Part shown: positions 60,807 to 61,486 of the stretch, piece by piece
Position numbering within the stretch: the stretch's first letter is position 1
Layout of the letters: each line of letters begins with the position of its first letter
NCBI RefSeq assembly: GCF_055900595.2
Contig: NZ_CM148325.1
Strand: one strand, 5' to 3'
Length of the DNA: 64,000 bases
Position numbers and translations under genes: made by a program
Notes under the pieces: model-generated
What the model was told of the DNA's origin: nothing
The model's input: only the letters and a program-made list of their open reading frames with translations
Databases searched by the model: none

Positions 60807-61486
60807 TTTCAAATGCGCCTGTAAGGCTCTGTTACCAGCCGCGCCCTAACAGGCGCATACGATCTGACATTTGCATTCAACTTCGTTACTTACGGCCCGT
60901 AAACGGGCTGCCCGGATATGGAATCGATAACTGCTCCCCCATTTTATCCTCTTCAAGCTGGTGCTTTATGTAGTCCTGTATCTTCGCCGTGTTCTTACCC
61001 ACCGTATCGACATAGTACCCTCGGCACCAGAACTCCCTGTTTCTGTATTTGAATTTCAAATCCCCAAACTGCTCGTAAAGCATCAGACTGCTTTTCCCTT
61101 TCAGATATCCCATAAAGCCGGATACGCTCATTTTGGGTGGGATTTCCACAAGCATATGGATATGATCTGCGCAGCACTCTGCTTCCAGAATCCGTACGCT
61201 TTTCCACTCACACAGCTTTCTCAAAATACTGCCTATCGCCCTACGCTTCTCTCCGTAAAACGCCAGTCTTCGGTATTTCGGCGCAAAAACTATGTGATAT
61301 TTACAGTTCCAGCGGGTGTGCGCTAAGCTCTTTTCGTCCCCCATTGGGACCCCCTTTTGATTTCTTGTTTGACACTTGCAGTTGCCAGACCGCAAGGTGT
61401 TTTAACAAATCAAAAGGGGTTTTAATAACTGGCTCAAAGCTGAAAGCTTTCCGGAACCCCCAGCCTAGCTGGGGGTTTTCTGTGCA
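60807..61486 (-). mobile_element. IS200 (IS200/IS605 family); boundaries approximate (+/- 20 bp)
   Basis: Lies exactly between the fhuE and ptsG terminators; 152-aa Y1 transposase; left-end hairpin cccccagcctagctggggg at 61459..61477 upstream of tnpA; right-end hairpin atgcgcctgt...acaggcgcat at 60822..60866. Confidence 0.85.
60886..61344 (-). CDS. tnpA: IS200 transposase TnpA (HUH/Y1)
   Basis: ORF 60886..61395; 152 aa from MGDEKSLAHTRWNCKYHIVFAPKYRR...; HxH motif (DHIHML) and catalytic Tyr region. Confidence 0.9.
   Translation of the reverse strand: MGDEKSLAHTRWNCKYHIVFAPKYRRLAFYGEKRRAIGSILRKLCEWKSVRILEAECCADHIHMLVEIPPKMSVSGFMGYLKGKSSLMLYEQFGDLKFKYRNREFWCRGYYVDTVGKNTAKIQDYIKHQLEEDKMGEQLSIPYPGSPFTGRK

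What the first reader, a model, noticed from the sequence alone, without database searches (positions are those of the whole stretch)
60807..61486. IS200 copy inserted between the convergent fhuE and ptsG terminators
IS200 is uncommon in E. coli and absent from K-12. This copy sits in a transcriptionally silent pocket between two terminators, a typical IS200 location. It could serve as a strain-typing marker.
Basis: partly seen in the sequence, partly recalled or inferred. Interest (0 to 1): 0.3.

Follow-up and report, generated by a model that had tools for sequence, protein, structure and literature searches.

The report
IS200 copy behind the ptsG terminator
This is an ordinary, intact 711-bp IS200 insertion sequence already annotated in identical E. 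coli genomes, but it sits directly after the single ptsG terminator rather than between two host terminators, a placement shared by nearly all 126 other copies examined.

Summary
The IS200 call is correct. The 152-aa ORF (60886..61344, minus strand) is an IS200-type Y1 transposase, and the 5' leader matches Rfam STnc490.

The coordinates and the context are wrong. Comparison with the K-12 empty site and nine other E. coli copies puts the element at 60777..61487 (711 bp, no target duplication). The supposed fhuE terminator (60786..60809) is IS200's own right-end hairpin, present in every copy. K-12 has only one hairpin here, the ptsG terminator.

IS200 is not uncommon. A copy of at least 80% length occurs in 2063 of 5426 complete E. 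coli genomes. This particular insertion is in only 9 of them.

A by-product: in 126 independent IS200/IS1541 insertions from many hosts, the left end abuts a host hairpin followed by TTTNTT. Of 120 flanks scored, 95% fold at -10 kcal/mol or lower, against about 20% of matched controls. The element's own right end has the same form. This suggests that IS200 targets intrinsic terminators, probably because they mimic its right end.

The finding itself is already known and of low interest. The targeting rule is only partly described in the literature I could read.

The parts
60777..61487 (-). Complete IS200-group insertion sequence, 711 bp. On the tnpA-sense (minus) strand it reads GTGCACAGAA...GGAGGATATTTATT.
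   Evidence: The K-12 empty site reads CACCTGT|AAAAAAGG with nothing gained or lost. The same ends are found at 9 other E. coli loci. It is about 96% identical to IS200C, 91% to Salmonella IS200F and 87% to IS1541.
60886..61344 (-). tnpA, 152 aa plus stop. Y1 HUH transposase with H61-I-H63 and Y125.
   Evidence: Pfam PF01797 at 7.9e-37. NCBIfam NF033573 at 144 bits. PDB relatives are 2ec2, 2f4f, IS608 2a6m and ISDra2 2xm3. Y125F is catalytically dead in Salmonella IS200 (PMC4513863).
61455..61477 (-). Left-end hairpin AACCCCCAGCTAGGCTGGGGGTT. In Salmonella IS200 this is the bidirectional terminator at nt 12-34, and by analogy with IS608 it is the presumed TnpA-binding left hairpin.
   Evidence: DNA fold of -11.7 kcal/mol, z = -3.1. 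Anatomy from PMC4513863. Unique in the window.
61478..61487 (-). Left tip GTGCACAGAA. The conserved GAAAA (61476..61480) lies just 5' of the hairpin foot and is a putative guide for the T-rich target.
   Evidence: GAA+AA is conserved in nearly all left-end variants. The guide role is inferred by analogy with IS608 (PMC3201880).
61354..61477 (-). tnpA 5' leader, covering the STnc490/art200 region with a long stem-loop that sequesters the Shine-Dalgarno AAGGGGGT (61349..61356).
   Evidence: Rfam RF01405 at 146 bits, E=1.3e-31. Fold of -36.2 kcal/mol, z = -6. PMC4513863.
60786..60804 (-). Right-end terminal hairpin CCTCCGGCTATGCCGGAGG. It is followed on the sense strand by ATATTTATT (60777..60785) and on the + strand by TTTTT (60805..60809).
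   Evidence: Present in all copies. A compensatory change to CCACC/GGTGG occurs in Vibrio and Mailhella copies. Fold of -13 kcal/mol, z = -4.7. Scored as terminator-like on both strands.
60813..60858 (-). Inner right-end stem-loop ATGCGCCTGT...ACAGGCGCAT, downstream of the tnpA stop codon.
   Evidence: Fold of the 109-nt right end gives -24.6 kcal/mol, z = -5. Conserved in IS1541 and in the Vibrio and Mailhella copies.
61488..61513 (-). Host ptsG intrinsic terminator: AAGGCAGCCAGATGGCTGCCTT plus a 6-T tract (61488..61493). This is the integration target and the only hairpin in the K-12 spacer.
   Evidence: Present in the K-12 empty site. Terminator scan. Fold of -10 kcal/mol, z = -4.8.

Best explanation
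This is an intact 711-bp IS200-group insertion sequence at 60777..61487. It carries a single gene, tnpA, on the minus strand and no tnpB.

What is shown:
- The 152-aa protein is a Y1 HUH single-strand transposase.
- The left end carries the known IS200 control elements: a terminator hairpin, the STnc490/art200 region, and a stem-loop that buries the ribosome-binding site.
- The right end carries a conserved GC hairpin followed by ATATTTATT.
- The element went in without target duplication, exactly at the end of the T tract of the ptsG terminator. It has the same orientation as ptsG and lies on the lagging-strand template.
- The hairpin read as an fhuE terminator is the element's own right end.

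What is inferred by analogy with IS608: TnpA binds the two subterminal hairpins on the top strand, excises a single-stranded circle, and pastes it 3' of a T-rich target (TTTNTT). The target would be read by the conserved A-rich guide next to the left hairpin.

What is inferred from 126 independent junctions: a host terminator (hairpin plus T tract) is preferred because it looks like the element's own right end (hairpin plus TTTATT).

Expected consequences, not measured: the ptsG terminator stays intact, and fhuE transcripts now meet a canonical hairpin plus T5 supplied by IS200.
For: Identity. RefSeq annotates the identical copy as tnpA.

Boundaries and absence of duplication: K-12 empty site against the window, and 9 further E. 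coli sites with the same ends.

Right-end hairpin belongs to the element: (including the compensatory change).

Structures.

Target rule:
- T at -1 in 119/120 and at -2 in 118/120, free at -3, T-rich at -4 to -6.
- Upstream 36 nt fold at -10 kcal/mol or lower in 95% of flanks, against 17% at TTTNTT-matched positions (p=5e-60) and 20% at TTTNTT sites in ORF-free DNA.
- The right-end side flank is unstructured, with 3-12% reaching that energy.
- The last G:C pair lies a median of 7 nt (IQR 6-8) before the junction, against 9 nt at the element's own right end.
- Tandem copies sit directly after another copy's right end.

Strand: GC skew, together with the K-12 map position of ptsG, which is established knowledge.

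IS608 paradigm: PMC3201880.
Against: No transposition assay was possible, so activity and the guide/target pairing are inferred. IS200 is notoriously inactive in the laboratory (PMC4513863).

IS608 needs only a tetranucleotide and no target hairpin, so a hairpin requirement would depart from the paradigm. In the IS608 integration complex both hairpin-binding sites are thought to be occupied by the element's own ends.

Post-insertion selection could contribute to the terminator association.

The sample is dominated by Y. pestis (about 55 of 120 sites).
Confidence: 0.9

Rival explanations
1. One reading: a 680-bp IS200 (60807..61486) that dropped into a gap between two pre-existing host terminators, one for fhuE and one for ptsG.
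For: Two terminator-like hairpins do flank the tnpA region in the window.
Against: The K-12 spacer is 59 bp with a single hairpin. The 'fhuE' hairpin travels with IS200 to every other locus and species. Published IS200 lengths are 707-710 bp, which fits 711 bp and not 680 bp.
Confidence: 0.02
2. The terminator adjacency comes from purifying selection rather than target choice. IS200 would insert at any T-rich site, and only copies landing just past a terminator, where they are harmless and transcriptionally shielded, would survive.
For: A preprint interprets upstream terminators as limiting transposase expression (10.1101/2025.07.22.666184). IS608 requires no target hairpin.
Against: Only 20% of TTTNTT sites in ORF-free DNA have such a hairpin, against 95% of real junctions. 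The junction is nucleotide-precise relative to the hairpin. The hairpin is only on the left-end side. The rule holds in Y. pestis, where IS expansion is recent, and an IS1541 sits after the pheL attenuator, where it disrupts regulation (PMC3082878). Tandem copies use another copy's right end as the site.
Confidence: 0.15
3. The locus is kept mainly as a source of regulatory RNA (5'tnpA sRNA and art200) that the host has co-opted, as in Salmonella, rather than as a mobile element.
For: The STnc490 region is intact at 146 bits. In Salmonella the 5'tnpA RNA regulates invF and more than 200 genes (PMC5435999; 10.1101/2024.06.26.600842).
Against: The tnpA ORF and both ends are also intact. There are 15-17 near-identical places per genome in this clade, and copies sit at different sites in different strains, which argues for recent mobility. 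No E. coli targets were tested. This reading does not exclude the main explanation.
Confidence: 0.1
4. The protein is a REP-associated tyrosine transposase (RAYT), a domesticated relative, and not an IS200 transposase.
For: There is a weak NCBIfam hit to REP_Tyr_transpos at E=4e-07.
Against: That hit scores 30 bits against a cutoff of 80, while transpos_IS200 scores 144 against 55. The unit is multi-copy with its own conserved ends and is not flanked by REP pairs.
Confidence: 0.01

Closest known systems
IS200C (E. coli) and IS200 / IS200F (Salmonella enterica)
   Same: Same size class (707-711 bp), a single 152-aa tnpA, the same left-end terminator hairpin, the same 5'UTR stem-loop and STnc490/art200 region, the same right-end hairpin, and no inverted repeats or target duplication.
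   Different: About 4% nucleotide divergence from copies annotated IS200C and about 9% from IS200F. This exact variant (at least 99% identity) is the best match in only 227 records.
IS1541 (Yersinia pestis / pseudotuberculosis)
   Same: Orthologous element with identical left- and right-end hairpins and the same placement after host terminators.
   Different: About 85-87% identity. The left tip reads GTGCCCAGAA instead of GTGCACAGAA. More than 50 copies per genome, some in tandem.
IS608 (Helicobacter pylori), the mechanistic paradigm for IS200/IS605
   Same: Homologous Y1 HUH transposase (2a6m, E=3e-19). Subterminal hairpins at both ends. Cleavage a few nt 3' of the right hairpin (10 nt in IS608, 9 nt here). 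Insertion 3' of a short target that stays on the left flank. No duplication.
   Different: IS608 also carries tnpB. Its target is TTAC, with no hairpin needed. Its left cleavage site is 19 nt from the left hairpin, against about 10-12 nt here. The IS200 target is TTTNTT preceded by a hairpin.
Bacterial class C (IIC) group II introns
   Same: A mobile element that homes to the position just after intrinsic terminator stem-loops. This is an analogy in target choice only, from my own knowledge and from the context in PMC7923331 listed.
   Different: A ribozyme/reverse-transcriptase retroelement, unrelated in sequence and chemistry.

Membership tests
IS200 group of the IS200/IS605 family | Encodes a Y1 (HUH, single catalytic tyrosine) transposase of the IS200 type | tested here: met
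   Pfam PF01797 at 126.5 bits against a cutoff of 23. NCBIfam NF033573 at 144 bits against 55. H61-I-H63 and Y125 are present. PDB relatives.
IS200 group of the IS200/IS605 family | About 700 bp with tnpA only (no tnpB) | tested here: met
   711 bp between the empty-site joints. tnpA is the only ORF in the element with a family match; the other listed ORFs overlap it.
IS200 group of the IS200/IS605 family | No terminal inverted repeats; subterminal hairpins at both ends | tested here: met
   The ends GTGCACAG... and ...ATATTTATT are not inverted copies of each other. Left-end and right-end hairpins fold with z = -3.1 and -4.7. The right-end hairpin shows a compensatory change.
IS200 group of the IS200/IS605 family | Inserts without target-site duplication, 3' of a short conserved sequence on the left flank | tested here: met
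   K-12 reads CACCTGT|AAAAAAGG, with nothing duplicated. The left flank is TTTNTT in about 120 sites.
IS200 group of the IS200/IS605 family | IS200-specific left-end control region: terminator hairpin at about nt 12-34, SD-sequestering stem-loop, art200/STnc490 | tested here: met
   Rfam RF01405 at 146 bits against 56. Folds. Layout as described in PMC4513863.
IS200 group of the IS200/IS605 family | Mobile: the same unit at different loci in different genomes | tested here: met
   Ten different E. coli loci. Present in 2063 genomes, up to 35 places per genome. Only 9 genomes have it at fhuE/ptsG.
IS200 group of the IS200/IS605 family | Transposase-dependent excision and integration of a single-stranded circle | not testable with these tools
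   Requires in vitro or in vivo assays.
REP-associated tyrosine transposases (RAYT / TnpA-REP) | Scores above the RAYT family threshold; single-copy gene flanked by REP/BIME | tested here: not met
   NF047646 at 30 bits against a cutoff of 80. The unit is multi-copy and has its own ends.
IS605 / IS1341 groups (tnpB-carrying) | Presence of tnpB (or iscB) and its guide RNA | tested here: not met
   A 711-bp element has no room for it, and no such ORF is present.

The most novel reading that the evidence does not exclude
IS200-group transposases may choose intrinsic transcription terminators as integration sites by structural mimicry. A host GC hairpin followed by TTTNTT would look like the element's own right end (hairpin plus TTTATT). 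The conserved A-rich guide beside the left hairpin would read the T tract, with position -3 left free. This would make IS200 a structure-plus-sequence targeted single-strand transposon, unlike IS608 or ISDra2. It would also explain IS200's harmlessness, its intergenic location and its tandem arrays. I found no explicit statement of this in the searchable literature. A 2025-26 preprint reports the upstream-terminator enrichment only statistically and reads it as expression control. Older subscription-journal reviews could not be checked.
Probability: 0.3. Interest if true: 0.55.

Novelty: already known. Interest (0 to 1): 0.2.

Why it matters
The element itself matters little. It is a known, annotated IS200 copy, useful at most as a marker for a small clade: 8 near-identical genomes plus one divergent strain among 5426.

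Two corrections do matter for anyone annotating such loci.
- The hairpin plus T run next to a gene that converges on an IS200 belongs to the element and not to the gene. Terminator and 3'-UTR annotation of fhuE is therefore changed by the insertion.
- IS200 is common in E. coli.

If the terminator-mimicry targeting rule is mechanistic, it would add a structure-dependent target mode to the single-strand transposon family that gave rise to the TnpB/Cas12 systems. It would also explain why IS200 is so benign and so persistent.

Tried and rejected
- My first population count (889 genomes) was an artefact of including flanks in the query. It was replaced by an element-only search.
- A strict perfect-stem hairpin test undercounted, giving 95 of 120. 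Most of the 'misses' were imperfect stems or long loops, so I switched to folding energies.
- A 24.7-kb search meant to define the clade gave a confusing ranking: 8 records at 99% identity or more were not listed on top. I compared two carrier genomes directly instead.
- Several papers that might state IS200 target preference are not held: Cornelius 2009, Beuzon 1999 and He 2015. Other literature searches found nothing explicit.
- The RAYT reading was rejected on family scores.
- 'Ancestral in this strain, deleted in K-12' was rejected. Only 9 of 5426 genomes have the insertion, and the joints coincide exactly with the element ends seen elsewhere.
- Whether KGu016 acquired its copy independently could not be resolved.

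Full report
**1. What is there**

The region contains an ORF at 60886..61344 on the minus strand. From its internal ATG it encodes 152 aa.
- It matches Pfam Y1_Tnp (PF01797) over the whole domain at E=7.9e-37.
- It matches NCBIfam transpos_IS200 at 144 bits against a cutoff of 55. The REP-associated relative reaches only 30 bits against a cutoff of 80.
- Solved relatives include the Sulfolobus proteins 2ec2 and 2f4f, IS608 TnpA (2a6m, E=3e-19) and ISDra2 TnpA (2xm3).
- The HUH motif is H61-I-H63 and the tyrosine is Y125. Changing that residue kills Salmonella IS200 TnpA (PMC4513863).

Upstream of the ORF, Rfam STnc490 matches end to end at 61354..61477 with 146 bits, against a gathering score of 56. 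The Shine-Dalgarno AAGGGGGT (61349..61356) lies inside a long stem-loop, as described for Salmonella IS200.

**2. True boundaries**

K-12 MG1655 has only 59 bp between the ptsG and fhuE stop codons. Aligning that empty site with the window and three other E. coli copies, and then six more copies, shows the following.
- On the tnpA-sense strand the element reads GTGCACAGAA...GGAGGATATTTATT.
- It occupies window 60777..61487, which is 711 bp.
- The host sequence CACCTGT|AAAAAAGG is neither duplicated nor deleted.
- Published lengths for IS200 are 707-710 bp.

**3. The 'two terminators'**

The K-12 spacer holds one hairpin, AAGGCAGCCAGATGGCTGCCTT plus six T. This is the ptsG terminator.

The other hairpin, CCTCCGGCATAGCCGGAGGTTTTT at 60786..60809, is inside IS200.
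- It is present in all ten E. coli copies, in Yersinia IS1541 and in Edwardsiella.
- It carries a compensatory CCACC/GGTGG change in the Vibrio and Mailhella copies.

So the element did not drop between two host terminators. It sits immediately 3' of the T tract of one terminator, in the same orientation as ptsG. Its own right end supplies the second hairpin.

Two consequences follow by inference. The ptsG terminator is unchanged. fhuE transcripts in K-12 meet a hairpin with a poor T tail (TTAGTCTCC); here they first meet a canonical hairpin plus T5.

**4. How common it is**

An element-only search finds matches in 2641 of 5426 complete E. coli genomes.
- A copy of at least 80% length is in 2063 genomes (38%).
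- There are up to 35 places per genome.
- Most copies are about 96% identical and annotated IS200C.
- 227 records have a best match of at least 99% identity.

On plasmids the element is 91% identical to Salmonella IS200F and 87% to IS1541. 'Uncommon in E. coli' is therefore wrong.

The insertion at fhuE/ptsG is rare. Nine genomes have it, eight of them identical over the junction region.
- The window is 99.97% identical to one of them, strain Z0117EC0005, over 23.3 kb.
- The ninth, KGu016, differs by about 1.2% in the flanking genes. Its copy differs at two positions, and both variants also occur in other copies. An old insertion and a recurrent hit at the same nucleotide cannot be told apart here.
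- Carrier genomes hold about 15-17 places matching the junction-region query, one of which is the fhuE/ptsG locus itself.
- No second copy lies in this window.

**5. Where IS200 goes**

All four E. coli copies in the first alignment abutted a hairpin plus T run. I therefore collected left-end junctions from one genome per species with a 24-nt left-hairpin pattern.

Among 120 distinct host flanks (the three E. coli comparison loci, the window and the new loci):
- Position -1 is T in 119 and -2 is T in 118. Position -3 is free. Positions -4, -5 and -6 are T in 103, 115 and 93. The motif is TTTNTT|.
- The 36 nt before the last four fold at -10 kcal/mol or lower in 95% of flanks. The figure is 17% at TTTNTT-matched random positions (Mann-Whitney p=5e-60) and 20% at TTTNTT sites in ORF-free DNA.
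- The DNA on the right-end side is unstructured, with 3-12% reaching that energy.

With the six further E. coli sites added, the set has 126 junctions.
- The last G:C pair of the host hairpin lies a median of 7 nt before the junction (IQR 6-8).
- The element's own right end is a GC hairpin followed by nine nucleotides ending in TTTATT. That is the same motif at a similar distance.
- Tandem IS1541 copies sit directly after another copy's right end.

**6. Mechanism**

*Shown.* This is a Y1 HUH transposase gene flanked by subterminal hairpins, inserted without duplication 3' of a conserved T-rich sequence. The top strand of the element lies on the G-rich strand of the window. Given the K-12 map position of ptsG on the clockwise replichore, that strand is the lagging-strand template.

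*Inferred by analogy with IS608.* In IS608, TnpA binds the hairpins, and the four bases 5' of each hairpin foot guide cleavage and target choice by base pairing. One guide adenine is flipped into the protein (PMC3201880). In IS200 both hairpins are preceded by GAAAA(A), and this is conserved in nearly all left-end variants. That would read a T tract, and a flipped base would leave one position unconstrained, as seen at -3.

*Inferred from the junction statistics.* The adjacent hairpin is part of what is recognised, most simply because a terminator mimics the right end. The alternative is that selection alone leaves only terminator-adjacent copies. It is disfavoured by four observations:
- the intergenic control;
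- the nucleotide-level precision of the junction;
- the strict one-sidedness of the hairpin;
- the tandem arrays.

Only an assay on fresh hops can exclude it.

**7. What is known**

The IS200 anatomy and its multilayer repression are well described (PMC4513863, PMC5435999). [quoted passage not shown] It interprets them as limiting transposase expression. A paper on pheL mentions IS1541 between pheL and pheA in Yersinia, which is after the attenuator terminator. I found no explicit statement that IS200 targets terminators or that the right end mimics one. However, the main family review and the older IS200 and IS1541 papers are not in the library.

**8. Verdict**

The finding is a correctly identified, already annotated IS200 copy with wrong boundaries and a wrong reading of its surroundings. 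Novelty is 'already known' and interest is low. The terminator-targeting regularity is a robust by-product and worth a proper test.

Noticed in passing
L005-L066 (MAG contigs of Oxalobacter, Peptococcaceae, Bacillota, Mailhella/Desulfovibrio, Saccharibacteria, Elusimicrobiaceae): The exact 24-nt IS200 left-end hairpin occurs in very distant phyla, often within about 100 nt of a contig end. This means either wide horizontal spread of IS200-group elements or repeat-induced assembly breaks and binning contamination.
   Followed up: no
L069, L070, L072, L116 (Y. pestis NCTC5923): Tandem IS1541 copies. The left end of one copy directly abuts (or is one T away from) the right end ...GGAGGATATTTATT of another, so the right end itself serves as an insertion site.
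   Followed up: partly
L126 20001-20901 (E. coli KGu016), equivalent to window 60700-61600: A strain whose flanking genes differ by about 1.2% carries an IS200 at exactly the same nucleotide, with two internal differences (window 61173 and 61423) and one in the ptsG terminator loop (61504). Shared ancestry and recurrent insertion are unresolved.
   Followed up: partly
window 61354-61477: The Rfam STnc490 match is on the tnpA-sense strand, whereas Ellis et al. 2015 describe STnc490/art200 as antisense to the tnpA 5'UTR. The Rfam model may represent the sense-strand leader.
   Followed up: no
window 8001-24000: G+C content drops to 0.41-0.42, against about 0.50-0.53 in the rest of the window. 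This probably marks a horizontally acquired segment.
   Followed up: no
L132 (E. coli P30_L1_05.20, near hypT): This IS200 copy is annotated as frameshifted and has a C-to-T change in the left-end hairpin (AACTCCC...), so it is a decaying copy. It still sits after a hairpin plus T7.
   Followed up: no
window 36000-60700: The search reports 8 records at 99% identity or more, but the top-ranked rows are all 98.7% or lower at full coverage. The closest relatives were apparently split or ranked lower, for reasons I did not resolve.
   Followed up: no
L003 (yidC-mnmE), L130 (phage antitermination gene / tRNA cluster), L129 (prophage lom / tail fibre): IS200 copies also lie between co-directional genes and inside prophages, wherever a terminator is present. 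Insertions can therefore separate a terminator from the next gene's promoter region.
   Followed up: no
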